Source of the DNA: Escherichia phage vB_EcoS-26175I
Sequence record: NC_133255.1
Strand: one strand, 5' to 3'
DNA length: 64,000 nucleotides
Position numbers and translations under genes: made by a program
The notes under the pieces: generated by a model
Seen by the model: the letters and a program-made list of their open reading frames with translations, nothing else
The model's database searches: none
What the model was told of the DNA's origin: nothing
Shown here: piece by piece, positions 1-13,938 of the stretch
Numbering within the stretch: position 1 is the first letter of the stretch
How the letters are laid out: every line of letters starts with the position of its first letter

Positions 1-342
1 AAAAAGTTTTTATGCGGGAAAGTATTATTTTGAACCGACGTTAGAATAAAACGGCGACCGGATTTAACTTCCCATTGTTCAACGGTACTAGAAACAATTC
101 CCGCCGCTTCTGGACGATCATCATTTTTAATCGCCTTTTCAGCTTTTGCCGCTTTCGGTTTCGCTGGCTTATTTGCTTCCAGCCAGTCACAAATTGCGGT
201 CGAATGTTTCGGCGTATCATAAACAGCTTTTGAAATATCGTCGCAAACTTCCAATTTAGTAGCGCGTAAACGCTTACCATAGAAATTAAAATCAGCGGCC
301 ATTTTCAAAATTTGAGCTTGTTTTTCTGCGGAAATATTCATA
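1..342 (-). CDS. hypothetical protein, 3' end truncated by window edge (starts MNISAEKQAQILKMAADFNFYGKR)
   Basis: ATG at 342-340 preceded by AGGAG; open frame without stops to position 1; not in ORF track because no stop lies in the window. Confidence 0.45.
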
Positions 343-447
343 ACTAAATCAACTCCTATAAAGGGATAAATATTAATACTGGCAATATTGCCAAATATAA
401 TGCCTTGCCCGAAGTGGGGACTTTTAAAGGCATTATAATTTGCAACA

Positions 448-681
448 TTATTCCGATAAAATAAATTGCACTTGTTCAATTACCGAAAGAATAAGCGCGG
501 TAATAATAAAGAATCTAGCCAGCCATAAGGCGCTATTTTGAGACTGTAAAAGCCATTTAGTATTTGTAACACTAATTGCTTTATTAGCGTATTCAAGGCA
601 AAGTGAACCGAATTTATATTCTAGAGTATAGAATAATGCCGCCATGAAATAACAAGCTAGAACTATATAAATGTTAATCAC
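448..681 (-). CDS. small hydrophobic membrane protein
   Basis: 77-aa ORF with two hydrophobic segments. Confidence 0.4.
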   Translation of the reverse strand: MINIYIVLACYFMAALFYTLEYKFGSLCLEYANKAISVTNTKWLLQSQNSALWLARFFIITALILSVIEQVQFILSE

Positions 682-730
682 TAAATTCTCCTTTAAGGGA
701 TAGCGGGGAATAATCCCCGCTAATTAAAAT

Positions 731-1147
731 TTATTCACCTGCGGCCTGTTTTACTTCCTCCGCTACGCCTAACAATTGCGCTACGGCTTCCAGCGTTTCA
801 AGTTTTGCACTTTCCAAACTTGCCAGATCATCGGCATCTTTAATAACGCCAGCATCAATGGCATGTTTAGCCATAACGCGCACATAGTGAGCTTTACGGA
901 TTGAGCTACCGCCGCCAACTTTGCGAGGCTTGTCGCTTTTCTGATACGCTTTCGCGCTGGTCAGTTTAGAACGTACAGACACTGGACTAGCAGCGCCAAC
1001 GGCGGCGGCAATTTCTTTCAGGCCGTCACTGTTAGCAAATTCAATTCCGCTTTTAGCGACCATTTCAGAATACATAGAAACAGCTTTTTCGGTGTTTTCT
1101 TCGTTCCAAGAGAATTTTGCGGTTTTTTCGGTTTTAACGTTAGACAT
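731..1147 (-). CDS. hypothetical pre-early-region protein, Ala/Lys-rich
   Basis: 138-aa ORF; position in the pre-early-like segment. Confidence 0.5.
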   Translation of the reverse strand: MSNVKTEKTAKFSWNEENTEKAVSMYSEMVAKSGIEFANSDGLKEIAAAVGAASPVSVRSKLTSAKAYQKSDKPRKVGGGSSIRKAHYVRVMAKHAIDAGVIKDADDLASLESAKLETLEAVAQLLGVAEEVKQAAGE

Positions 1148-1454
1148 AGTTTAATACTCCATTCAATTATTAATTAAGGGATTATGATTAACTAAATGTT
1201 AATCGCTATATATTCTAATTAGATAATTAATATTACCGCTTTCGCTTAGACAATTAATTATTTAATACAGCTAGAATATATAACGGAAACATTTTATTTT
1301 TATTTCCTATTTAATGCCTTTTAGCGGCGACATTGTATATATACGCTGTCGATCTGATCACTATTACCCCATTCGACGGGAATCGTTAACGCTAGATTAT
1401 TCGAATCATCGTTATAGCCTGATTAAGCGTGATATGTTTAGTTACTACCGCTTA

Positions 1455-1706
1455 TTATGCGATAGCTTGCCATTTATCTTCCTTTTGAATGACCTTTACA
1501 ACGTCGCCAGATTTAACGCGAACGTTATAAATTGGCTTGCCGTTGTTACTGCGTTCCGTTTCAGCGTATACCGCTTCGATTTTATCGAAAGGAACAAGCG
1601 CCGCACCTTTAATACGTTCGGCTTTTCCGGTTAATTCATCCGTTTTAGTAACAAAAGGAATGAATACAGATTGACCTACTTTCGGCGCGGTAATAACGTT
1701 TTGCAT
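1455..1706 (-). CDS. hypothetical protein
   Basis: 83-aa ORF with a globular-looking sequence. Confidence 0.4.
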   Translation of the reverse strand: MQNVITAPKVGQSVFIPFVTKTDELTGKAERIKGAALVPFDKIEAVYAETERSNNGKPIYNVRVKSGDVVKVIQKEDKWQAIA

Positions 1707-1870
1707 TTTTAATACTCCGGTTTATTGGGGATTATTCCACAATAGCGCCTCGATACTTTGAAACGCTATTAGATTATAATCCGCTAGGAGTTAGCCTAAA
1801 CATTACCGTTATCCAAATTGTTAAAGAGCAGTTACTACGGGGAACATCTTAAAACCTATCGGCTAGCGTG

Positions 1871-2089
1871 TCAAGCGTTTTTTAAACTTTTTTCGATTTG
1901 ATGGGAGTTATATAAATCAATCATTATATTACGCCACACCATTTCCAGACCTTGCTGCTTGCCTTTCTTGTATTGCTTGAATCGGTATTTTACCGATCGT
2001 TGCGCTACTGTCAACAAATTTTTTGTTCTGCTATCTAATGCACTAGCAGGTTTCGCACTAATCACTAAAGCGTTTTTTGATTTGATCAT
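1871..2089 (-). CDS. small basic hypothetical protein
   Basis: 72-aa ORF with weak RBS. Confidence 0.3.
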   Translation of the reverse strand: MIKSKNALVISAKPASALDSRTKNLLTVAQRSVKYRFKQYKKGKQQGLEMVWRNIMIDLYNSHQIEKSLKNA

Positions 2090-2159
2090 TATCGTCGATT
2101 CCTTATATTATATAAGTTTACCGCCGATAGGCTTTAAGATGTTCCCTAGTTTTTAAAGA

Positions 2160-3160
2160 GCGCGGCGGTAAACTTTCCCGCCGTGTAGTTCGTCATTGCC
2201 GCCCTACGTGATAAATAATAGGAGAATACCGAGAAGGGCGCAACCTTATTTTTGTAAAGAAACGTAAAGACAAACGCCACTGCACCACGTCCAGCGGCGC
2301 ACTAAATTTAATGAAACGGGCGCGCGAATAACACCAAAACAACCATTTTAGCAAGTAATTTTCTCATTTATATTTGCTTTGCCCTACTTGACAAAATCTA
2401 AAATCCTCGTGGTGAGGTTTTCTCGGTGTACCCCTTATGATTGCCTATCTTTTCCTTTGAGGCGCTTAGAATGCGTTACAGAGCGTTTTAGACCCTGTTA
2501 ATAACTTATACAAAAAGCAAAAATGAAATTTAATGAGTTATCCACTTGATTTTTCAAAAAAGTATTTTCTGCTATTATTTTTCATTGACAAATAAGTTTA
2601 GACGTGCATTGATTGGTTAGCAGACTAACAATCGCTAGGATGATAATCACGCTGGTGGATTGTAACAGCTGAAACAGTTAGCAGACTATTAATACTCTAG
2701 AAACCTGTTAGCCAACTAACTATTTCATATTATATAATATACATATAAATTAATAAGAAATAATAACTATAAGAAACTATCAGCTAAGTGAGAACCACTA
2801 TCATTTAGGTTATTCACAAAGTTATCCACAGCACAAAATAACTTGACGCAATAGGCGACGTTTTGGCGACTTATCCACAGACTTATATACAGGTTATCCT
2901 ACTGTATAAATATACAGGGTAAATAGGTAGCAGTAACAACCGCAATCAAATTTAAGCGGCCTAGAACGCATTCTAAGCGATTTTCTCACTGCTACCCTTA
3001 TTATAATAAAGCCTTGTGTACGCTTACAGAGAGCTAGAAATAGAAAACGCGCGGTTATCATAAAAACAGGCAGTAGGCAAGGAATAAAAAACCTTTTCTT
3101 TTTTCTTGCCCCTAGCGAACAATTATCTATATCATTCACTCACCGATTAACGAGGGAGAC
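2160..3160. repeat. non-coding module A: DnaA-box-like sites (TTATCCACA near 2822-2830 and 2871-2879, TTATCCACT near 2538-2546), palindrome CTGTATAAATATACAG near 2901-2917, repeated GTTAGCAGACTA motifs, and a ~27-bp element TTAGAATGCGTTACAGAGCGTTTTAGA (about 2466-2492) with an inverted partial copy near 2966-2980
   Basis: Motifs read directly from the sequence; the same elements recur at 5800-5975. Confidence 0.6.
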
Positions 3161-3166
3161 AAAGAA

Positions 3167-4168
3167 ATGTCTACTGTAAGAATTGCAGTACCAGCAAACG
3201 CCACTATTATTAAGGGTAGTTTGCGCAACCTGCTAGACGGATCAAGTCCAGCAAGCCTACAACATACGGCGGCAATGGTTGAAAAGATTCACGATGATAT
3301 TTTAGATAATAATGATACTCATTATTGTTTAAGTGATTTCACACAACTACTAGACCCTACCCGCGTTCTAGTGCTTTACAACCGTGACTATCACATCATG
3401 CGAAATCAGCGGGGAAGCGATATTGATTTTATCATTGTAGGTCACGACGAAAAAAGCTATATTGCCCGTGGTTACAATGTACAAGAAAAGGAAATGGTTT
3501 TCGCTACTCGCGTAAATGGTATTAATTCCAGCGATGTAGAAGATTTACTATCTAGTATTTGGGGCGAATTGACAAGCGCCATTAAACGTGCTGATAGTGA
3601 CGCAATCGAAACAACTGGCGTATTGTGTTTTGAACGCGCTAGCGGTAACATGTTGATCCCTAACGATTATTTAGAGTATGGGAATGAATCAAACGTTGCA
3701 AACGCTGGATTTACACTTTTACCGCTTGACAATGTAACAAAACAGGCTGTAAGATCTAACACTCAAACTTCAAGCGCAAATGCGCAAACTACTGAAAATA
3801 AAGGAAATATTATGTCTAAAGTATCTTCTATCGTTGCTGCTAACAAATCTGCTGTTGTAAACGCTGCTAAACTGGAAGCGGGTAAAATTGCACTGACTCA
3901 AATCACAAAAGTAGCGGCGAAAAAAGCACCGTTTATGATTAAAGGGTATATTGATACGCCGATTGGTCGTGTAGTGATCGCTAACCTGCTGAGTGTAGCG
4001 GTTGACCAGTACGCCCCGACTAATGCGAAAGCGAAAGCGGTAGCAGGCGCGGCAATGGAAGCAGCAATGCTGGAAATGGTGCAGAGTTTCAATATTGCTG
4101 AAATGATCGATGAAATGGTAAAAGGCATTGACATTTCTACTTTTACCACTAACACCGAAAGCGAGTAA
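3167..4168 (+). CDS. hypothetical protein with Ala-rich C-terminal half
   Basis: 333-aa ORF with GAGGGAG RBS; followed by a hairpin plus T-run. Confidence 0.6.
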   Translation: MSTVRIAVPANATIIKGSLRNLLDGSSPASLQHTAAMVEKIHDDILDNNDTHYCLSDFTQLLDPTRVLVLYNRDYHIMRNQRGSDIDFIIVGHDEKSYIARGYNVQEKEMVFATRVNGINSSDVEDLLSSIWGELTSAIKRADSDAIETTGVLCFERASGNMLIPNDYLEYGNESNVANAGFTLLPLDNVTKQAVRSNTQTSSANAQTTENKGNIMSKVSSIVAANKSAVVNAAKLEAGKIALTQITKVAAKKAPFMIKGYIDTPIGRVVIANLLSVAVDQYAPTNAKAKAVAGAAMEAAMLEMVQSFNIAEMIDEMVKGIDISTFTTNTESE

Positions 4169-4195
4169 TAAATAGTCTAATGTAAAGTTTTGTAA

Positions 4196-4224
4196 AGGTC
4201 GCCCTAATCGGCGGCCTTTTTTGT
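4196..4224 (+). terminator. rho-independent terminator
   Basis: GC hairpin (GGTCGCC...GGCGGCC) followed by TTTTTT, just after the 4168 stop. Confidence 0.5.
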
Positions 4225-4287
4225 TATAATGCCTTTACACCGAAACGGTGGACTGAAAATTTTCCCTAATTTCTAGGAGGCGTTAAA

Positions 4288-4437
4288 ATGGTTATTTTTC
4301 GATCTATTCTGGCTAGTATCTTGGGCGCTATTTTATCCTTGTTTGTAATAGCTTTCGGCGTTCACGTGGTTATTATTGGAGCAGGTATCGCGGGGTTTTC
4401 TTACTTGTTAGGCTGTATGACTGGTAAAGGGGAATAA
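4288..4437 (+). CDS. 49-aa hydrophobic membrane peptide (MVIFRSILASILGAILSLFVIAFGVHVVIIGAGIAGFSYLLGCMTGKGE)
   Basis: Strong RBS TAGGAGG 8 nt upstream; frame checked codon by codon; below the ORF-track size cutoff. Confidence 0.5.
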   Translation: MVIFRSILASILGAILSLFVIAFGVHVVIIGAGIAGFSYLLGCMTGKGE

Positions 4438-4439
4438 AA

Positions 4440-4652
4440 ATGTTAAAGAATGTTTCCCTTGCCCGTTCCAAAGGTTTTAAGCTGGTGGATGTTAACACGT
4501 TCGAGCGTCCAGATTGTAAAATCGAATATGTAGCACGCAACAAAAACGCTTTCCGTGTTACAGAAAAGAAATTTGACAAGCGCGGCAATTTGGTAGCCGA
4601 AACGGTCAAACACTTTGCCACCTTTTACGCTGCATTTCGTGGGGTATTATAA
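4440..4652 (+). CDS. hypothetical protein
   Basis: 70-aa ORF with AAGGGG RBS, tightly packed after the previous gene. Confidence 0.5.
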   Translation: MLKNVSLARSKGFKLVDVNTFERPDCKIEYVARNKNAFRVTEKKFDKRGNLVAETVKHFATFYAAFRGVL

Positions 4653-4758
4653 TGGAAAGGGCAATTGTTAAAATGTTAACTTTTGTTTGTGGCGTGTCTA
4701 GTGCTACTCTGTTGATCACGCTAGTGATTATGATTATCCGTGACGCGAGGATCTTTTA

Positions 4759-5103
4759 ATGGTAATTTATGAGGGCAATCGTTTTGTTACTAATTGCCGT
4801 CCGGCATTATTAGCAAACTATTTAAATCAGCTTTCACCAGTTTATAAAGGCGTAGTTAATATCTATGAGGGCAAAGCACATTATAAGATTAATGCCATTG
4901 TTGCCCGTGAACTAGCGTTTCAATTTTTAACTTTCGGGTCTTGTGACGTTCAGGTTATGGGGGAAGCGTTAATAGCAGAAAATGAAAATGAATTTATCGA
5001 CATTTTCCGCAAAGTATATACAGAGCGCCTGATTATGAAAGGCGCGTATATTCAATCAACCGCTGAAAGTATCGAAACAGCGTTTCGAAAGGTGGCGCAA
5101 TGA
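4759..5103 (+). CDS. hypothetical protein
   Basis: 114-aa ORF with GAGG RBS. Confidence 0.55.
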   Translation: MVIYEGNRFVTNCRPALLANYLNQLSPVYKGVVNIYEGKAHYKINAIVARELAFQFLTFGSCDVQVMGEALIAENENEFIDIFRKVYTERLIMKGAYIQSTAESIETAFRKVAQ

Positions 5104-5285
5104 CTAGAAATGAAGCTGTTAAAGCTATGTTAGAAGGTAAAAAAGTAACTCATCGTTATTTTTCCATGCATGAATATTTATTCATGAAATATGAAGTGAT
5201 CACCACGGAGGATGGTTATAAATTTAATCATGAATTTTATAGCCGTGAAATGTTTAATGATGGCTGGCAGCTTTATTATGAATAG
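5100..5285 (+). CDS. hypothetical protein
   Basis: 61-aa ORF with ATGA start/stop overlap to the upstream gene. Confidence 0.45.
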   Translation: MTRNEAVKAMLEGKKVTHRYFSMHEYLFMKYEVITTEDGYKFNHEFYSREMFNDGWQLYYE

Positions 5286-5522
5286 CTGGTGGCGTAAAAC
5301 GCAAAGTCACAAATCTAATAATACCGCTGGGAATGTTTCCCAGCGTTTACGATTTGGTAATGGCTTTACAATGATATTGATAATCATTCTCATTCTAGGA
5401 GCGATGGCGTTATGAGACTATATATTTTCGTGGGTAATATTAAGCCTGCTAATGATCCCAACGGTGGCGACAATATCCGCCGCTATTTTCAACAATACAT
5501 CTATTAATAACGGGGCGTTACT

Positions 5523-5717
5523 ATGAGTGATAAAATTGTTATTCGTAAAACTAGTGTTACCGTGGATACATTCTATGTAGAAGATACAAAAGAAAACCGC
5601 GCAATTTGTGAGAATCAAGAGTATGACAAACTTATATATGATGAGTATGGTTACTACACTAATCTAGTAGATTCCTACGGTGAAAGCGTAGAGTTCTCCC
5701 ATCAAATACCGGACTAA
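5523..5717 (+). CDS. hypothetical protein
   Basis: 64-aa ORF followed by a terminator hairpin. Confidence 0.45.
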   Translation: MSDKIVIRKTSVTVDTFYVEDTKENRAICENQEYDKLIYDEYGYYTNLVDSYGESVEFSHQIPD

Positions 5718-5723
5718 TAATAA

Positions 5724-5756
5724 CGGGGCGCAACTATCGGCCCCGCCTTTTCTGGC
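5724..5756 (+). terminator. rho-independent terminator
   Basis: CGGGG...CCCCG stem followed by CCTTTTCT. Confidence 0.5.
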
Positions 5757-5799
5757 CTTCCTCAAATTTTCCCTTATTAAAATACCCCCTCCAAAAATA

Positions 5800-5975
5800 A
5801 ACGCGTTAGAATGCGTTACAGAGCGTTTTAGAGCTATATTAGAGTTATTCACCACGCAGGAATACTGTATAAATATACAGTAGAATAACCTGTTGATAAG
5901 TCTGTTGATAACGCCTCAAAATCGCTAGGATTTTGTCAAGTCAAATCGTGCTGTTAATAAACCTGTGGATAACTT
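5800..5975. repeat. non-coding module B: second copy of the 27-bp element (about 5806-5832), palindrome TACTGTATAAATATACAGTA (about 5863-5882), tandem TGTTGATAA DnaA-box-like sites (about 5891-5910) and a reverse DnaA box TGTGGATAA (about 5965-5973)
   Basis: Direct comparison with 2160-3160. Confidence 0.6.
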
Positions 5976-5999
5976 AAATAACAGTGTTTCTCACTTCCC

Positions 6000-6900
6000 T
6001 TTCTAAATGCAAATCATTCTCATTATGCGACTCATTCGCATTCAACTCTGTAAATGATAACCATTCTCATTCCGCTTTCTAAACGCGAATCATTCTCATT
6101 CGCATTCAACTTCTCAAATGCGAATCAATCTCATTATCATTCGCATTTCGGCAGGCAGGGCATTTTCATTTTTGCCCTGCGCTTTTGTGCAAATCCGACA
6201 TTTGCCCCCACGGATTACGTGCCAGCGTGCATGTGCGAATCCGACAATTTTTGGTAGTGTGCAAATCCGATGGGAAATATTTTTTATATGTGCGAATCCG
6301 ACAATGAATTTTCCTAAAAACTCCAGCAATCAACAACTGCGATGCAATCCAGCTGGATTTACTAGAATATGTGCAGATCCGACAAGTGTTAAGGTGTGCG
6401 AATCCGACAAGATTTTTGTGACTTCGATGAGAGGGTGTGTGATTGTGTGAGTTTGGGGAGAAGTGCGAATCCGATGAGATTTTGGGAGGAACTACGGAAG
6501 GAGCAGCGGTGTTGGTGCTTCAGCACCGGTTTGCTGCGTTTTTGGGGATAATGTGGGATGTTTTGGCTAGAATTGAGATTAGGGGAGATAAAGCGAAATT
6601 TTATTAGCAAAATGGGGCAGAATAGCTTGACAAGTGAAAATTCCTGTGGCTCTAAAAACTCAGGCAAATATGGGCCTTCGGCCCGAAATAATGCTGCTAT
6701 TTTCAGTGTTCCTAAAAACTTTGGAGACTCCTATCAATGTGCAAATCCGACCATAAATTTCTAGAAACATAATGTGCAAATCCGATAGCAATTTCCAGAA
6801 ATGTGTTTTGGAAAAATGTCTTCTAGAAATAACCGCCCTCCCTATAACCGCCCTCTATAGGAAACCGCCCTAGGATATGTAACGTTGGAGAGAAACTGCC
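6000..6900. repeat. injection-stop-like repeat locus: tandem CATTCTCATT / CATTCGCATTCAAC units (about 6005-6160); about 9 dispersed copies of GTGC(G/A)AATCCGA(C/T) (about 6186-6790); three to four AACCGCCCT units (about 6830-6900)
   Basis: Repeat families read from the sequence; only short junk-like ORFs; irregular spacing, not CRISPR. Confidence 0.6.
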
Positions 6901-7323
6901 CTAGAATGCGTGAGTTTTCCTAGAAACTTAGGAGTCTACTAGAAAGTGTTGTGCCATCCTAGCAGATGAGCGGCAACCGGTGTATCATCTTGAACGTTAA
7001 TTTATCTATTCAACAGTATTAGTTTTTATATAAGTATAAGATCCCCCAGGGTTCTCATATAGAGCTTTGCCCCCCGTCAGAAGGTCTCGTGATGTTTCTA
7101 GTAATCTTTACTAAATTACCTGTTGACTTGTCCTGTCGCTCCGTAACCTACGCTACAAGTCAGTAATTTAAGATTCCTGAACCACCACACCTTCTGTGTG
7201 GCAACTCTAAATGGTTAATTTTATTAACTCATAGAGTTATGATAACATACATTTAGTTATCTGTCAACGAGAGTTTGTATTTGAGTCTCGGTACAGGTAT
7301 TGTGCACCGAGACATGCAGGATC

Positions 7324-8211
7324 TTACAGTAACTCTTGGTATGCTTTTTGATACGCCTCAGTGTTAGTAGGTGTATCTTTTGCAATAGCTATTAATTCAT
7401 CTGTGATCTGAATATTTGTATTATAACGTGTGTGGAACTCGTCAGGAATTTCTAAATATCTATTGATGAATGCTGCAGCAAGCGGTGAAGCTATACCCAT
7501 TTCTAGAACCCATCCAACTTGTTTCTCAAACTTCAGATAAGGAGATTCTGTTTGAGTAGTAGAAGTTTTGGTTTCCTTGACTTCTTTAGTTGGTAGAATT
7601 GGATTTTCATAACGTGCTTCTTCTGGAATAGCAGATCTACGTTCTTTATAAATATAAGTTTCTAGATCCGATGCTTTAGACCCTGAGTACACTGCAAAGA
7701 CACTTGCTTTACCTTGTGATGCTCTAATTGGAAGATAACAATTTGGATAGCTTCTTAAGGCATCATGGAACGGGCTTCCAGAATATTGATAACGATCTCC
7801 ATATAAATCATCAATATTCATTCGTTCATCTTCAAAGATGTGGAATGCACTAAATGAAGGTAGCGTAAAATATTCTGTCTCTAGCGCACGAATTAAGAAA
7901 CGATGTGCATATGCACTAATCTTAATAACTGTGTAAGGTTTTTCTCCTTCTTTAAGAGCGTTACCCTTAGATGTAACTTGATAACGTTTCCCAAAGAACT
8001 CTACTAAACGTTTCTCATTTAACGAGAGCGTAGAGTATAAACGTCCATTCAGTCCTAGCAAAGTATCAAACATAAATGCTAGCTTATCTTTTTCTTCTTG
8101 GGTTAGTTCAGGGAACGGTAGGATCTTAGCATTTGGAATATTATTTGTTTCCTTAGCTTTTCCTTTGCCAGCATTTTGTCTCAGTTTGTCTTTAAAATTA
8201 TATGTACTCAT
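7324..8211 (-). CDS. hypothetical early protein
   Basis: 295-aa ORF. Confidence 0.6.
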   Translation of the reverse strand: MSTYNFKDKLRQNAGKGKAKETNNIPNAKILPFPELTQEEKDKLAFMFDTLLGLNGRLYSTLSLNEKRLVEFFGKRYQVTSKGNALKEGEKPYTVIKISAYAHRFLIRALETEYFTLPSFSAFHIFEDERMNIDDLYGDRYQYSGSPFHDALRSYPNCYLPIRASQGKASVFAVYSGSKASDLETYIYKERRSAIPEEARYENPILPTKEVKETKTSTTQTESPYLKFEKQVGWVLEMGIASPLAAAFINRYLEIPDEFHTRYNTNIQITDELIAIAKDTPTNTEAYQKAYQELL

Positions 8212-8280
8212 TGTGTTTCCTTTTTAAGGTCAGATGACCTGCTTTTTATTTTAAAGCCTCCGTAGAGGCTTGTGTATTAG

Positions 8281-8529
8281 TTACTTTTTATTACGTGGTA
8301 TTACATCTACGCATACTAAACCTAACTGTTTGATAAGACCTGCTAGATAACAGTGATGCAAGATCGCTTCTTTTGGTATTTTACTTATTAACTCAATAAT
8401 AGTACGTAGATCTTGTTGATTAGCAAAGAAAACATGCCTGATTTCTTCTTTTAAGTAAATACCGAACGTATCAGTATTAACAAGTTTTATACTAAAATCT
8501 TCATGTTCATAGGAGAGTAGTATATCCAT
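8281..8529 (-). CDS. hypothetical protein
   Basis: 82-aa ORF abutting the next gene. Confidence 0.45.
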   Translation of the reverse strand: MDILLSYEHEDFSIKLVNTDTFGIYLKEEIRHVFFANQQDLRTIIELISKIPKEAILHHCYLAGLIKQLGLVCVDVIPRNKK

Positions 8530-9140
8530 TAACGACCTCTAGCCTTATCTGCATCAATAGCTTCGAATACTTTCGTTAACATTTCTTCAAGCTCACCTTC
8601 TTTGCTAGGATTGCTCAAACGAATAGTATATGAGTTCCTAGAAACTCCGGAGTCTTCCTGTGCTCCGCGATCTTTAGCAAAGCTCATCATTGTAACGCCA
8701 GCTTTATTCCACTCGTCTACGCTAGACGCTTCCCCAAACTTATATGATTGCGTATTACTCACCACGCCACCACAAGGAATATTGTGCATATCCGACATTA
8801 ATCTTTTATCGGAGTTATTCAGCATTGCGATTGGTCCCGACTGCCACGGATCTCTAATAGTCACTGGAGTACTAGGGCGATTCACCTCAGTCTTCACGAG
8901 TTTGTACCCCGCATCGATCAGTGCATTAATCAGATTATCAGCCGGGATGCGAGCTGTGCCAAAGATAGCACGAGCATTCATGAGTTTAGCCTGAAATTCC
9001 TTGCAACCTTGAAGATCAGTGTGCAAAAACGACAGTTGCATAGATTTAAACTGTACTGTAGCAGTCAGATCTTTAAAGCTGTAATCCCATGTGTCGAGTT
9101 CATGATCTGCTACTACTTTAATGGTTTGTTGTGTAAACAT
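8529..9140 (-). CDS. hypothetical protein
   Basis: 203-aa ORF. Confidence 0.6.
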   Translation of the reverse strand: MFTQQTIKVVADHELDTWDYSFKDLTATVQFKSMQLSFLHTDLQGCKEFQAKLMNARAIFGTARIPADNLINALIDAGYKLVKTEVNRPSTPVTIRDPWQSGPIAMLNNSDKRLMSDMHNIPCGGVVSNTQSYKFGEASSVDEWNKAGVTMMSFAKDRGAQEDSGVSRNSYTIRLSNPSKEGELEEMLTKVFEAIDADKARGR

Positions 9141-9325
9141 TATTTATTCTCCAGTTTATCTAACAGCTTACGAGCTGCGATATTATGTTGTTTAAGTTCA
9201 CGATTGAGAATCTGGTTCTCACTAATTAATTCTAGATTCTTGGTATTAAGACTACTACAGCAAACCACTAATCCTAGAACTGCCACTAGAGACGCTACTA
9301 ATATAACGAGAAATAATATTTCCAT
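9140..9325 (-). CDS. small membrane protein
   Basis: 61-aa ORF with N-terminal transmembrane segment. Confidence 0.45.
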   Translation of the reverse strand: MEILFLVILVASLVAVLGLVVCCSSLNTKNLELISENQILNRELKQHNIAARKLLDKLENK

Positions 9326-9558
9326 TATTTAATTCCCATGTATCTTTTTAGGTATTCGATGAAGTCTTCAGCTTTATGCTCTTGACTGCCCTGAGCCACG
9401 AATAACTTTAGAACCTCACGCTGTTGTTTAAGAACAGAGACTTCTCTCCGCAATTTCACAGTATCGTCAATGATCTGGTTAGCATAACGAGTCTTGCGCA
9501 CAGCGGTATTGATAGCGAAGACTAGTGCGATTAGTAAAATAATTAATACATATTCCAT
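9325..9558 (-). CDS. small membrane protein
   Basis: 77-aa ORF with N-terminal transmembrane segment. Confidence 0.45.
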   Translation of the reverse strand: MEYVLIILLIALVFAINTAVRKTRYANQIIDDTVKLRREVSVLKQQREVLKLFVAQGSQEHKAEDFIEYLKRYMGIK

Positions 9559-9845
9559 CAGTTACTCCAGATTAGCATCCAGCTCTTGTCGAACGTGGCT
9601 GCTCTGTTAATTAATTCGCCCATAGAAACGTTATTGTTGTCTATGGCTTCTTGTACAAACTCTTTACCGAAATCATCTACTAGGTATTCTGTACCATTTA
9701 TAATAATCTTGTAGAGAGTTGGGACTAAAGGATGTTGATGATTAAGAGGACTCTCGTTAACAATTATCTCATTCCTTCCCCACGTCGTCTTGAACAGTTT
9801 GTGGGAGAGTAGAGCTAATGGGTTTGACCAGACTACGTACTCCAT
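9558..9845 (-). CDS. hypothetical protein (start uncertain)
   Basis: 95-aa ORF overlapping the upstream gene by about 77 nt. Confidence 0.35.
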   Translation of the reverse strand: MEYVVWSNPLALLSHKLFKTTWGRNEIIVNESPLNHQHPLVPTLYKIIINGTEYLVDDFGKEFVQEAIDNNNVSMGELINRAATFDKSWMLIWSN

Positions 9846-10311
9846 CTTTCTTTAACTCCTGCTTTAACTTTTGATCTTTATTATACCAAATTATATGCTC
9901 ACCGTCAACTACAAATTTGTGGAAAGGTGCTGGTACGGTGTACACTCCATATTCTGTTAAGCGTGTCACAACTTTATGAGCGCATAATCGGCAACCATGT
10001 CCTTCTAAGTGAGACCGTGCAGTTTGCAAGAAGTAACCATCGTGATCTGGGCAATAGATCTCAACCTGCTGCTGCATAGTTCTATACTTAACTCTCTCAT
10101 ACCCAAAGAACTTACCATGTGCTTCTACAGCTCTCCTAATAAAAATAAGATTAAGTGCGTCTTGCTGGAAGTCTGGATGAAGTTGTTTAAGTTTAGTTCT
10201 ATTAATAGATCCATCTGATTTAGTGAATCTATTTATGGGGAATTGTAATGATTCCTCATAAAGTAATTCGTTTATTTTATCTCTCATAGTATACACGAAA
10301 GGCCAGAACAA
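9769..10311 (-). CDS. hypothetical protein with Cys/His cluster (HLEGHGCRLCAH)
   Basis: 180-aa ORF. Confidence 0.5.
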   Translation of the reverse strand: MFWPFVYTMRDKINELLYEESLQFPINRFTKSDGSINRTKLKQLHPDFQQDALNLIFIRRAVEAHGKFFGYERVKYRTMQQQVEIYCPDHDGYFLQTARSHLEGHGCRLCAHKVVTRLTEYGVYTVPAPFHKFVVDGEHIIWYNKDQKLKQELKKDGVRSLVKPISSTLPQTVQDDVGKE

Positions 10312-10331: not shown

Positions 10332-10715
10332 TTAGTGAAGTTGCTTGCCGTTTAAGGCCATATCAGCAGTTTCCAGAAGAGATTCAGTAATCTCACGAGA
10401 AACTAGATATTCATCAATTGAGTGGCGGCGTTTATAGGCATAAGCATTAACAATCAGATCTAGAGCACCGAGAACATCATGAACAGTTACTTCTTCATCA
10501 TTATCTAGCTCTTCTTGGGTAATCTCGATTAACTGGCCAACTGCCATTAAAAGCCCAAGAATATCTGCTGTTTCACCTGCCACCAGCGGATTAGCACATC
10601 CTACTGTAAGATCGAAAGCATGATTGACAATTGACTGCCCATCAACGCTTCCTTCTTCAATCTGCTTCTCCAACTGCTTCATCTGCTCTAGCACTGGATT
10701 TTTCTTTTGTGTCAT
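10332..10715 (-). CDS. hypothetical acidic protein
   Basis: 127-aa ORF. Confidence 0.5.
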   Translation of the reverse strand: MTQKKNPVLEQMKQLEKQIEEGSVDGQSIVNHAFDLTVGCANPLVAGETADILGLLMAVGQLIEITQEELDNDEEVTVHDVLGALDLIVNAYAYKRRHSIDEYLVSREITESLLETADMALNGKQLH

Positions 10716-13347: not shown

Positions 13348-13938
13348 TCAAACATTAATATCTCCCCTTAATACTGCTGCCACATCTTCACCGATTTGGA
13401 GTACTTCACCAGTAGTGCAGTTAACCACTTTATCATAGCTTGTGAACTTGCCAGACACAATATCTTCTAGAGGAATAGGAGTCTTACTCATCTCAAAAGA
13501 GACGTTGATATAATGTGGGTCACGCACAGAATTGGTGTGCACATGTCCGTGAATATTTAGCTTACCACGAAGTTCTGCTTCGTGCAATGGACAGTGTGAC
13601 AGCCAAAACTTCTTGCCACCACCTGTTTGCTTACCTAGAGCCTGAATATCATCATAAACGTCTACAAGATCTTTAATACGCAGACCCTGACGTTCAGCAT
13701 CGTGGTTGCCCATGATTAACTGGTTAGGCACATTGTGGATAACCGACTTTAATTTAGCCAACCCTTCACGCCCCACGGCAATATCCCCTAGCAAGACGAG
13801 CTTAGTACGCTTGCCAATGTGCTTGGACAAAGTATCTAGGATATATTCATCATGTTCTTTCATGTTCTTAAACCACGGACGGAAGCGAAGAGTTCCAGGG
13901 TGGTCTAAGTGCAAATCCGACCAGAATTTAACTTTCAT
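13348..13938 (-). CDS. calcineurin-like metallophosphoesterase
   Basis: Motifs DLHLDH, LGDIAVG, GNHD in the 196-aa product. Confidence 0.65.
   Translation of the reverse strand: MKVKFWSDLHLDHPGTLRFRPWFKNMKEHDEYILDTLSKHIGKRTKLVLLGDIAVGREGLAKLKSVIHNVPNQLIMGNHDAERQGLRIKDLVDVYDDIQALGKQTGGGKKFWLSHCPLHEAELRGKLNIHGHVHTNSVRDPHYINVSFEMSKTPIPLEDIVSGKFTSYDKVVNCTTGEVLQIGEDVAAVLRGDINV

What the first reader, a model, noticed from the sequence alone, without database searches (positions are those of the whole stretch)
6000..6900. Dense multi-family repeat locus resembling an injection-stop region
Within about 900 bp there are three distinct repeat families: tandem CATTCTCATT / CATTCGCATTCAAC units, about 9 dispersed copies of GTGC(G/A)AATCCGA(C/T), and AACCGCCCT repeats. 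Spacing is irregular and there is no spacer structure, so this is not CRISPR. It sits between the plus-strand cassette and the start of the minus-strand early block, the position expected for the first-step-transfer boundary in T5-like phages, and could bind a host or phage protein.
Basis: partly seen in the sequence, partly recalled or inferred. Interest (0 to 1): 0.55.

Follow-up and report, generated by a model that had tools for sequence, protein, structure and literature searches.

The report
T5-type injection-stop repeat region

Summary

**Identity.** The window is 100% identical to Escherichia phage vB_EcoS-26175III/IV/V (Epseptimavirus, T5-like). Window 5700-6900 aligns base for base with T5's annotated injection stop signal (NC_005859 9140-10149), which Davison calls "Repeat Region 3".

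**The three repeat families are real:**
- Six CATTCKCATT units lie at 6015-6147.
- Nine GTGCRAATCCGAY copies lie at 6187-6786, all on the + strand (0.22 expected by chance in the window).
- Three AACCGCCCT copies lie at 6831-6871.

**T5 landmarks mapped by homology:**
- The estimated first-step-transfer shear point maps to about 6061.
- The major nick maps to 6182/6183 on the minus strand.
- The right end of the terminal repeat maps to 6652.

So seven 13-mers lie inside the terminal repeat. Two 13-mers and all the AACCGCCCT copies lie outside it.

**Conservation.** The module order is conserved in coli, Salmonella, Klebsiella, Serratia and Vibrio Demerecviridae.

**Possibly new.** I found no mention of these in the searchable literature:
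- A 19/20 match to the LexA operator consensus sits beside the paired DnaA boxes in both inverted-repeat arms.
- Several sites resemble Fur boxes.
- The 13-mer arrays bracket the terminal-repeat cut site, which suggests an additional role in forming genome ends or in packaging.

The mechanism remains unproven.

The parts
2786..2917 (.). Distal arm of the large inverted repeat (Davison's IRC-spacer-IRD, 'Repeat Region 2'). It carries DnaA boxes at 2810, 2822 and 2871, and a second LexA-like palindrome at 2900-2919.
   Evidence: The 132-nt arms are 75% complementary to 5865-5996. The LexA match is 17/20. The element is described for T5 in 10.1101/866236.
5724..5751 (+). Terminator hairpin that closes the rightward pre-early gene cassette.
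   Evidence: It aligns to the terminator annotated in T5 at 9275-9296. The last + strand ORF ends at 5717.
5786..5996 (.). IRD'-spacer-IRC' module, the proximal arm of the inverted repeat. Among 9 phages it is the most conserved stretch of the locus of this length.
   Evidence: T5 9332-9462 maps to 5786-5916. The inverted-repeat arm is 5865-5996. Mean identity to 8 relatives is 0.84-0.96 per 25-nt block.
5863..5882 (.). Palindrome TACTGTATAAATATACAGTA, a 19/20 match to the LexA operator consensus.
   Evidence: This and 2902 are the only two CTGT-N8-ACAG sites in the 64 kb. Chance expectation for 19/20 or better is 2.5e-5 per window, and the authentic recA operator scores 16/20. The palindrome is invariant in coli, Klebsiella, Serratia and Vibrio phages.
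5891..5972 (-). Two pairs of DnaA-type boxes, each pair separated by 3 bp: TGTTGATAA at 5891 and 5903; TGTTAATAA at 5952 and consensus TGTGGATAA at 5964.
   Evidence: Read directly from the sequence. The pairs are invariant across five genera while the spacer between them is not. Davison described them.
5996..6150 (+). CATTCKCATT / AAATGNGAATCATT repeat family (DRE/DRC in T5 nomenclature). It is partly palindromic and C-rich on the + strand. The T5 shear-point estimate maps here, at 6061.
6152..6183 (-). GC-rich palindrome (CAGGGCA...TGCCCTG), followed by the predicted major single-strand interruption between 6182 and 6183 on the minus strand (5' of GCGC).
   Evidence: The T5 nick at 9748/9749 maps here. 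The block 6175-6199 is 100% identical in 9 phages. The PhageTerm 'repeat end' of phage Seabear falls exactly at this position.
6187..6475 (+). Seven copies of TGTGCRAATCCGAY (DRD) inside the terminal repeat.
6350..6650 (+). Block that is G-rich and C-poor on the + strand, with TTTGGGGA repeats. It forms the last 300 nt of the terminal repeat.
   Evidence: GC skew is +0.4 to +0.58.
6627..6652 (+). Conserved end box TTGACAAGTGAAAATTCCTGTGGCTC. The predicted right end of the terminal repeat is at 6652.
   Evidence: The T5 and Spc35 annotated terminal-repeat ends and the last bases of the vB_SenS-3 record fall here. The Slocum end called by PhageTerm falls within 2 nt in a recognisably similar box. 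Conservation is 0.92-0.98.
6672..6684 (.). GGGCCTTCGGCCC hairpin just outside the terminal repeat.
   Evidence: It is unique in the window. The 6675-6699 block is 0.98 conserved.
6739..6786 (+). Two further DRD copies, in a 35-nt tandem unit, outside the terminal repeat.
   Evidence: The same pair, 35-37 nt apart, is present in T5, Spc35 and Slocum.
6831..6902 (+). AACCGCCCT (DRA) repeats, three exact copies and one variant, outside the terminal repeat.
   Evidence: ATAACCGCCCT repeats lie at the same distance beyond the terminal-repeat end in T5, Spc35 and Slocum. A related motif lies about 30 nt inside the left genome end.

Best explanation
The locus is the orthologue of the T5 injection stop signal region (Davison's 'Repeat Region 3'). 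This is the large non-coding tract at the right end of the roughly 9.5-10 kb terminal repeat of Demerecviridae. It lies between the pre-early genes, which enter the cell in the first transfer step, and the early genes.

Shown here:
- Base-for-base homology to the annotated T5 feature.
- The same order of modules: terminator; inverted-repeat arm with a LexA-like palindrome and two DnaA-box pairs; CATTCKCATT repeats; GC palindrome with the nick site; seven oriented 13-mers; a G-rich block; the conserved end box; two more 13-mers; AACCGCCCT repeats.
- Conservation of that order across five host genera.

Inferred: I read the locus as composite.
- The left module (5786-6150) coincides with the T5 shear-point estimate. 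Its only deeply invariant islands are sites for universal host proteins. It is the most likely stop determinant, acting as a nucleoprotein and/or cruciform obstacle or anchor at the cytoplasmic face. This essentially follows Davison's DnaA model.
- The oriented 13-mer arrays bracket the terminal-repeat cut site. They occur essentially only in T5-like phage DNA: none lie near the left repeat boundary, and no arrays were found in Enterobacterales chromosomes. I therefore think they are more probably binding sites for a phage-encoded protein. That protein could act in the restart of transfer (A1/A2) or in forming and packaging the genome end.
- The AACCGCCCT repeats lie outside the terminal repeat. 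They cannot be part of the first-step DNA and probably belong to the end-formation signal.
For: Identity and synteny:
- The window is 100% identical to MK907269-71 (Epseptimavirus).
- It is collinear with the left terminal repeats of vB_SenS-3 and T5, from gene A1 onward.

Mapping of T5 features:
- The T5 record annotates 'injection stop signal (iss)' at 9140-10149, the left terminal repeat end at 10219, and a major nick at 9748/9749.
- These map to about 5700-6582, 6652 and 6182/6183.
- The terminal-repeat end was verified in two genomes and agrees with Spc35 and Slocum.

Repeat statistics.

Conservation:
- The repeats are conserved in 9 Markadamsvirinae genomes, in Klebsiella and Serratia phages, and as a module order in a Vibrio phage.
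- The five-genus alignment shows that only the LexA-like palindrome and the DnaA-box pairs are invariant.

Distribution of the 13-mer array:
- Pair-pattern scans hit 47 stretches in viral contigs, all but three on genomes of 104-123 kb.
- In 185,579 bacterial and archaeal species genomes there were 7 stretches: two are T5-like fragments and five are unrelated tandem repeats.
- No 13-mers lie near the left repeat boundary.

Not coding, not a known RNA: the internal ORFs have no Pfam or PHROG hits, and no Rfam family reaches threshold.

Literature:
- Davison (10.1101/866236) describes nine DRD repeats, DRE and DRA repeats and DnaA boxes, and places the shear point at about 9618.
- Papers from 2026 still call the mechanism poorly understood.
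Against: - No physical data exist for this particular phage. Its deposited records (114.6 kb) carry only one copy of the terminal repeat, so the repeat end, the nick and the pause point are all inferred by homology.
- The T5 shear point (7.9%) is an old and approximate measurement.
- According to Davison, T5 ejects its whole genome into FhuA proteoliposomes. This argues for a host-dependent stop but does not identify the cis element.
- Nothing here shows that any protein binds any of the repeats.
- The split of functions between the left and right modules is my inference, not a result.
- Among close relatives the 13-mer cores are only modestly more conserved than their spacers (0.87 against 0.80).
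Confidence: 0.85

Rival explanations
1. The 13-mer and AACCGCCCT arrays are mainly a packaging and end-formation signal, not an injection-stop signal. On this view they are oriented binding sites for the terminase or an accessory protein. These sites would define the right boundary of the terminal repeat in concatemers and start packaging there. The role would be comparable to lambda cosB or to the repeat arrays at the T7 concatemer junction. This can coexist with an iss function in the left module.
For: - The terminal-repeat end lies in the gap between the 7-copy cluster and the 2-copy pair in T5, Spc35, vB_SenS-3 and Slocum.
- All copies share one orientation in every phage examined, as expected for a directional process.
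- The 26-nt box at the cut site is 0.92-0.98 conserved and is recognisable in Slocum.
- ATAACCGCCCT repeats lie 190-250 nt beyond the right boundary, and a related TAACCGCCACCCCC motif lies about 30 nt inside the left genome end.
- The arrays are absent from host genomes.
- T5 DNA enters left end first. By the usual last-in-first-out rule (an inference), the right end next to this array is packaged first.
Against: - No 13-mer lies near the left boundary, although that boundary must also be cut.
- No terminase recognition site has been defined for T5 in the literature I could search.
- The motif resemblance at the left end is short and could be chance.
- No binding data exist.
Confidence: 0.35
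2. The region is a regulatory hub for transcription: a cluster of operators for host regulators (LexA, DnaA, possibly Fur) that time pre-early and early gene expression, rather than a mechanical stop.
For: - A 19/20 LexA consensus match sits next to DnaA-box pairs in both arms.
- The distal arm lies in the non-coding gap between the leftward and rightward pre-early genes.
- Fur-consensus matches of 16-17/19 lie at 3308, 4720 and 5373, against 0.06 expected per 64 kb.
- Promoter-like hexamers overlap the boxes.
Against: - The proximal arm lies downstream of a terminator and upstream of nothing on the + strand.
- The promoter matches within the module are weak (9/12) and close to the shuffle expectation (11 found against 6.2 +/- 2.7).
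- The promoters annotated in T5 do not overlap these sites.
- The Fur similarity of the repeat units themselves is only 13-15/19.
Confidence: 0.12
3. The region is an iteron-type replication origin: DnaA boxes, direct repeats and a compositionally skewed flank.
For: Paired DnaA boxes, nine same-strand direct repeats and strong strand skew superficially resemble oriC or plasmid iteron origins.
Against: - Spacing is irregular and not helically phased.
- There is no adjacent initiator gene.
- Davison cites electron-microscopy studies that place the T5 origins near the middle of the genome. He also notes that the replication genes are not expressed during the first-step period.
Confidence: 0.05
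4. The locus is a chance repeat cluster, a CRISPR-like array, or overlooked small genes.
For: Several database records annotate short hypothetical proteins across the region.
Against: - The motif count is far above chance.
- There is no regular repeat-spacer structure.
- The internal ORFs have no family matches, and T5 annotates no gene here.
- The conserved units are the repeats and the protein-site-like boxes, not reading frames.
Confidence: 0.01

Closest known systems
Bacteriophage T5 injection stop signal (iss), also called 'Repeat Region 3' of the left terminal repeat (NC_005859 9140-10149; Heusterspreute et al. 1987; Wang et al. 2005; Davison 2015 and 2020)
   Same: - The locus is orthologous, with about 79-86% identity over 1.6-2.6 kb.
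- The module order is identical.
- The inverted-repeat arm with paired DnaA boxes is the same.
- The CATTCKCATT-type repeats are the same, and there are nine GTGCRAATCCGAY copies as in T5.
- The nick-site sequence, terminal-repeat end sequence and AACCGCCCT repeats are the same.
   Different: - The differences are minor and at the genus level (Epseptimavirus against Tequintavirus).
- There are fewer copies of the CATTCKCATT/AAATGAGAATCATT units than in T5.
- There is an extra 13-mer at 6463 that T5 lacks, while T5 has an extra one at 10478.
- No experimental data on two-step transfer, nicks or termini exist for this phage.
Terminase recognition regions next to genome-end cut sites (lambda cosB; repeat arrays at the T7/T3 concatemer junction)
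   Same: Clustered short repeats lie immediately beside a precisely conserved cut site at a genome end. They have a single orientation and are specific to the phage.
   Different: No terminase binding has been shown, and the repeats are absent from the other (left) boundary. There is no sequence similarity to the lambda or T7 elements. The comparison rests on my general knowledge of those systems.
DnaA-box clusters of oriC-type origins and LexA operators (SOS boxes) of Gammaproteobacteria
   Same: The locus holds sequence matches to TTATCCACA and its near-variants, arranged in 3-bp-spaced pairs. It also holds a match to CTGT-N8-ACAG that is better than the one in the recA operator.
   Different: The sites sit on an incoming virulent-phage DNA end, not at an origin or an SOS gene promoter. 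Binding and function are untested.

Membership tests
T5-type iss / Repeat Region 3 of Demerecviridae | Large untranslated tract at the right end of the left terminal repeat, after the last pre-early ORF and before the leftward early genes. | tested here: met
   ORFs end at 5717 and resume at 7324. The window is collinear with the T5 and vB_SenS-3 left terminal repeats. The terminal-repeat end maps to 6652.
T5-type iss / Repeat Region 3 of Demerecviridae | An IRD'-spacer-IRC' arm with an inverted partner about 2-4 kb to the left, each carrying DnaA boxes in pairs separated by 3 bp. | tested here: met
   Arms 2786-2917 and 5865-5996 are 75% complementary. The box pairs are at 5891/5903 and 5952/5964. 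This stretch aligns to T5 without gaps.
T5-type iss / Repeat Region 3 of Demerecviridae | DRE/DRC repeats, about nine DRD repeats, and DRA repeats, in that order. | tested here: met
   The same motif positions are seen in T5. The list of elements is given in 10.1101/866236.
T5-type iss / Repeat Region 3 of Demerecviridae | A major site-specific nick on the minus strand at about 7.9% of the genome. | not testable with these tools
   The sequence around the T5 nick is 100% conserved in 9 phages. The PhageTerm boundary of Seabear falls exactly there. The nick itself is a physical property of virion DNA.
T5-type iss / Repeat Region 3 of Demerecviridae | Acts in cis to pause DNA entry after the first-step transfer. 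| not testable with these tools
   This needs infection experiments. Only the positional correspondence with the T5 shear-point estimate (6061) is available.
CRISPR array | Identical repeats at a regular period, separated by unique spacers of similar length. | tested here: not met
   Spacings are 46, 26, 31, 81, 25, 67, 276 and 35. The repeats are 13-16 nt long.
Iteron-type replication origin | Regularly phased iterons next to an initiator gene, with origin activity. | tested here: not met
   Spacing is irregular and no initiator-like protein lies nearby. T5 origins have been mapped elsewhere, according to the literature cited. Origin activity itself was not testable.
LexA operator (SOS box) | A 20-bp palindrome matching TACTGTATATATATACAGTA with intact CTGT and ACAG arms, bound by LexA. 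| tested here: inconclusive
   The sequence criterion is met: 19/20 at 5863-5882 and 17/20 at 2900-2919, against 16/20 for the recA operator. The arms are conserved across five genera. Binding could not be tested.
Fur box | A match to GATAATGATAATCATTATC or to arrays of its hexamers, bound by Fur-Fe. | tested here: inconclusive
   The repeat units score 13-15/19 and the authentic fhuA box scores 14/19. Stronger matches lie at 3308, 4720 and 5373. Only a consensus count was used, with no weight matrix and no binding data.

The most novel reading that the evidence does not exclude
The core of the stop signal may be a landing pad for abundant, universally conserved host DNA-binding proteins, not only DnaA. 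A near-perfect LexA operator sits directly beside the paired DnaA boxes in both arms of the inverted repeat. This arrangement is invariant from coli to Vibrio phages. Fur-box-like hexamer arrays follow in the enterobacterial phages. On this reading, host proteins that bind within seconds of entry would clamp or loop the two arms and arrest translocation, and the phage A1/A2 proteins would then release the block. A companion idea is that the oriented 13-mer and AACCGCCCT arrays are the unrecognised packaging and end-formation signal of T5-like phages. I found no mention of LexA or Fur sites in T5 first-step DNA in the searchable literature. The older primary papers could not be read.
Probability: 0.2. 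Interest if true: 0.6.

Novelty: already known. Interest (0 to 1): 0.25.

Why it matters
Two-step DNA entry in T5 has been known for nearly 60 years, but neither the stop nor the restart is understood. Papers from 2026 still say so.

This window adds no new kind of element. The comparative picture assembled here does narrow down what to test:
- The only islands conserved across five host genera are a LexA-like palindrome and two DnaA-box pairs.
- The intervening repeat family is lineage-specific.
- The oriented 13-mers bracket the terminal-repeat cut site.

Knowing exactly where first-step DNA ends also has a practical use. Restriction and CRISPR defences act only on the first-step DNA of these phages.

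Tried and rejected
- **CRISPR or a regular tandem array.** Rejected because the spacing is irregular.
- **Hidden genes.** Five ORFs of 67-110 aa within 6054-6764 gave no Pfam or PHROG hits. T5 annotates none here.
- **Known RNA family.** Rfam gave only one sub-threshold chance hit.
- **A host origin for the 13-mer array.** It returned only two T5-like fragments mis-binned into MAGs and five unrelated tandem repeats.
- **13-mers at the left terminal-repeat boundary.** None were found.
- **13-mers as a general nick-site element.** Rejected. There are only two other copies in the 64 kb, and the nick-flank motif CCCTGCGCTTTT is not enriched.
- **A DNA-binding domain in the pre-early proteins that might read the repeats.** Pfam gave only DUF families or nothing.
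- **Fur boxes.** I could only count consensus matches. The result is suggestive for 3308, 4720 and 5373 but weak for the repeat units themselves.
- **Terminal-repeat annotations of chee24, Kenya-K16 and Seabear.** These disagree with T5, Spc35 and vB_SenS-3. The chee24 repeat starts at T5 position ~107, so it is not the physical end. The Seabear end equals the nick site. Kenya-K16 remains unexplained.
- **Literature.** Davison 2015 could not be retrieved. Heusterspreute 1987 and Wang 2005 were not read either. I therefore cannot exclude that the LexA-like palindrome has been noted before.
Full report
**What is in the sequence**

Window 5718-7323 contains no convincing gene. Plus-strand ORFs end at 5717, and the minus-strand block starts with a stop codon at 7324.

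- GTGCRAATCCGAY occurs nine times between 6187 and 6786, always on the + strand. The whole window holds 11 matches at up to one mismatch, against 0.22 expected, and no shuffle reached that number.
- CATTC[TG]CATT occurs seven times in the 64 kb, all on the + strand. Six of these lie in 6015-6147. Tandem periods of 29 and 35 nt are reported there.
- The only three exact AACCGCCCT copies lie within 41 nt, at 6831-6871.
- Spacing is irregular, so this is not a CRISPR array.
- The five ORFs of 67-110 aa tested within 6054-6764 match no protein family.
- No Rfam family reaches threshold.

**What it is**

The window is 100% identical to Escherichia phage vB_EcoS-26175III/IV/V, genus Epseptimavirus, family Demerecviridae. 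Window 1-8300 is collinear with the left terminal repeats of Salmonella phage vB_SenS-3 and of T5, starting inside gene A1.

The T5 reference record annotates the following:

- an 'injection stop signal (iss)' at 9140-10149;
- a terminator at 9275-9296;
- a 'major DNA single-chain interruption' at 9748/9749 on the minus strand;
- the end of the left terminal repeat at 10219.

A global alignment (about 86% identity over the aligned columns) maps these and related landmarks onto the window:

| T5 feature | T5 coordinate | Window coordinate |
|---|---|---|
| Terminator | 9275-9296 | 5724-5751 |
| IRD'-spacer-IRC' | 9332-9462 | 5786-5916 |
| Estimated shear point of first-step DNA | 9618 | 6061 |
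| Major nick | 9748/9749 | 6182/6183 |
| End of annotated iss | 10149 | 6582 |
| End of left terminal repeat | 10219 | 6652 |
| End of Davison's Repeat Region 3 | 10409 | 6842 |

I checked the repeat end directly.

- T5's right terminal repeat is identical to 1-10219 and ends ...CTGTGGCTC. The vB_SenS-3 record ends with the same bases, and the window has the identical context.
- Spc35's annotated end maps to the same place.
- The PhageTerm-derived end of Serratia phage Slocum falls within 2 nt, in a recognisably homologous box: TTGACAAG...TGTGGC|TC.

Davison's preprint (10.1101/866236) describes this region in T5 and 24 relatives. It reports nine DRD repeats, DRE and DRC repeats, DRA copies, many palindromes and paired DnaA boxes.

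**Conservation**

- The 13-mer array has the same strand, number and spacing (46, 26, 31, 81, 25 ... 35) in T5, chee24, Spc35, Kenya-K16, OSYSP, SB9, Seabear and vB_SenS-3.
- A Klebsiella phage keeps seven copies with different spacing.
- Serratia phage Slocum keeps six: four before its terminal-repeat end and two after.
- In a nine-phage alignment the best-conserved blocks are 5800-6024 (0.84-0.96), 6175-6199 (1.00; the nick site plus the first 13-mer) and 6600-6700 (0.92-0.98; the repeat end and a GGGCCTTCGGCCC hairpin). The 13-mer cores score 0.87 against 0.80 for their spacers.
- A scan of viral contigs for two 13-mers 10-40 nt apart found 47 stretches, all but three on contigs of 104-123 kb, the size of T5-like genomes.
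- The same scan of 185,579 bacterial and archaeal species genomes found seven stretches. Two are T5-like fragments binned into MAGs and five are unrelated tandem repeats. None is in an enterobacterial chromosome.

The locus starts earlier than 6000. A 132-nt inverted repeat links 5865-5996 with 2786-2917. This is Davison's IRD'-spacer-IRC' and IRC-spacer-IRD.

The proximal arm holds two pairs of DnaA-type boxes, each pair separated by 3 bp: 5891/5903 and 5952/5964.

Directly to their left is TACTGTATAAATATACAGTA (5863-5882).

- It matches the LexA operator consensus at 19 of 20 positions.
- The distal arm has a 17/20 copy at 2900-2919.
- These are the only CTGT-N8-ACAG sites in the 64 kb.
- Chance expectation for 19/20 or better is 2.5e-5 per window.
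- The authentic E. coli recA operator scores 16/20 by the same count.
- In about 525 kb of T5-like loci, nearly all CTGT-N8-ACAG hits are these two sites, at fixed distances from the first 13-mer.

I aligned the window with T5, a Klebsiella phage, Serratia phage Slocum and Vibrio phage VCPH. The invariant islands are exactly this palindrome and the two DnaA-box pairs. The spacer between the pairs is not conserved.

In the Vibrio phage the module order is retained, but two families differ. The CATTCKCATT family is replaced by a 15-nt tandem repeat, and the 13-mer is a variant, AGTGCGAAATCTA.

The CATTCKCATT units resemble Fur boxes.

- They score 13-15/19 against the consensus, while the authentic fhuA Fur box scores 14/19. 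The fhuA box shares the 10-mer AATCATTCTC with them.
- Stronger matches (16-17/19) lie at 3308, 4720 and 5373, against 0.06 expected per window at 16/19 or better.
- This is a consensus count only, so I treat it as a lead.

I found no mention of LexA or Fur sites in T5 first-step DNA in Davison's preprint or in the searchable library. The 1987, 2005 and 2015 primary papers could not be read.

**How it most likely works**

What is shown is homology, position and conservation. What follows is inference.

The shear-point estimate falls in the CATTCKCATT block, immediately right of the DnaA/LexA module. That module is the only part conserved across host genera, and its conserved islands match sites of universal host proteins. 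The block also has strong hairpin potential (z = -5.6). I therefore favour the left module (5786-6150) as the stop determinant, acting as a protein-bound and/or cruciform obstacle or anchor. This is in line with Davison's membrane-DnaA proposal.

The 13-mers behave differently.

- They are asymmetric and uniformly oriented.
- They are specific to these phages.
- They are absent from the left repeat boundary.
- They bracket the conserved cut site, seven inside and two outside, in every genome with a credible terminus (T5, Spc35, vB_SenS-3, Slocum).

The AACCGCCCT repeats lie 180-250 nt outside the repeat in the window, T5, Spc35 and Slocum. A related motif lies about 30 nt inside the left genome end of T5, Spc35 and Slocum. 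T5 DNA enters left end first. By the usual last-in-first-out rule, the right end next to these arrays would be packaged first.

I therefore think the right half of the locus is more likely read by a phage protein, either for end formation and packaging or for the A1/A2-dependent restart. None of this is demonstrated. Reviews and 2026 papers state that the mechanism is still poorly understood, and no T5 packaging signal is described in the papers I could search.

**Rivals**

- A replication origin is unlikely. Spacing is irregular, there is no initiator gene, and T5 origins are mapped mid-genome.
- A purely transcriptional operator cluster is possible for the distal arm, which sits in the non-coding gap between the leftward and rightward pre-early genes. 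It fits the proximal arm poorly, because that arm follows a terminator.
- Chance, CRISPR and coding explanations are excluded.

**Verdict**

- Observation: confirmed.
- Interpretation: supported.
- Novelty: already known.
- Interest: low to modest. The element is annotated in the T5 reference genome and analysed in detail in the literature. The residual interest lies in the unsolved mechanism and in the leads listed above.

Noticed in passing
window 5863-5882 and 2900-2919: A palindrome matches the LexA operator consensus at 19/20 (proximal arm) and 17/20 (distal arm). It sits directly beside the paired DnaA boxes in both arms of the inverted repeat. It is invariant from coli to Vibrio Demerecviridae. 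I found no mention of it in the searchable T5 literature.
   Followed up: yes
window 3308-3326, 4720-4738, 5373-5391 and 6003-6140: Fur-box consensus matches of 16-17/19 lie at three sites in the pre-early region, and the CATTCKCATT units score 13-15/19. Only one other locus in the remaining 57 kb reaches 15/19. The E. coli fhuA Fur box (14/19) shares AATCATTCTC with the repeat unit.
   Followed up: partly
window 7239-7267 (minus strand): A near-consensus sigma-70 promoter-like site, TTGACA-17-TATCAT with a TG extension (11/12), lies just downstream of the last early-block gene. It points leftward into the non-coding repeat region. The GGGCCTTCGGCCC hairpin at 6672-6684 could end such a transcript. 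No Rfam match.
   Followed up: partly
window 8784-8796 and 13909-13921: Two isolated copies of the 13-mer (one with a single mismatch, one exact) lie on the + strand inside minus-strand early ORFs. The first has counterparts at the equivalent place in T5 (12154) and vB_SenS-3 (11687).
   Followed up: partly
L004 (Salmonella phage Seabear, MK728824) position 1432, equivalent to window 6182: The 'repeat region predicted by PhageTerm' ends exactly at the position of the T5 major nick, not at the true terminal-repeat end. The nick probably misled the terminus caller. This is also indirect evidence that the nick exists in Epseptimavirus.
   Followed up: partly
L062 (SABI01000336.1, 'Spirochaetia' MAG) and L067 (RZZU01000077.1, 'Clostridia' MAG): These short contigs in metagenome-assembled bacterial genomes carry T5-like iss-region sequence with the same flanks as the window. 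They are probably phage fragments that were mis-binned.
   Followed up: partly
L069 (Vibrio phage VCPH, AP014889) 2700-3550: The module order matches the window: terminator, AAATGAGAAT...TTCTCATTT palindrome, LexA-like palindrome, two DnaA-box pairs. A lineage-specific 15-nt tandem repeat (about 10 copies) replaces the CATTCKCATT family, and the 13-mer is a diverged variant, AGTGCGAAATCTA.
   Followed up: partly
window 5950-6150 and 6350-6650: There is strong and opposite strand asymmetry. The + strand is C-rich over the CATTCKCATT block (GC skew about -0.5). It is G-rich over the last 300 nt of the terminal repeat (+0.4 to +0.58), with TTTGGGGA repeats.
   Followed up: no
It is interspersed with the 13-mers and lies on both sides of the terminal-repeat end.
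   Followed up: no
window 2786-5996: The two arms of the 132-nt inverted repeat bracket the whole rightward pre-early gene cassette, with the LexA-like palindromes on the inner sides. Davison reports that this cassette is poorly conserved and of variable length among T5-like phages, so the arms could mark a recombination-prone module.
   Followed up: no
L005/L072 (chee24, NC_047885) and L007 (Kenya-K16, OQ291030): The annotated terminal repeats disagree with the T5-type ends. The chee24 repeat starts at the equivalent of T5 position ~107. The Kenya-K16 'DTR' ends just after the DnaA box. These are probably annotation artefacts rather than real differences in the termini.
   Followed up: partly
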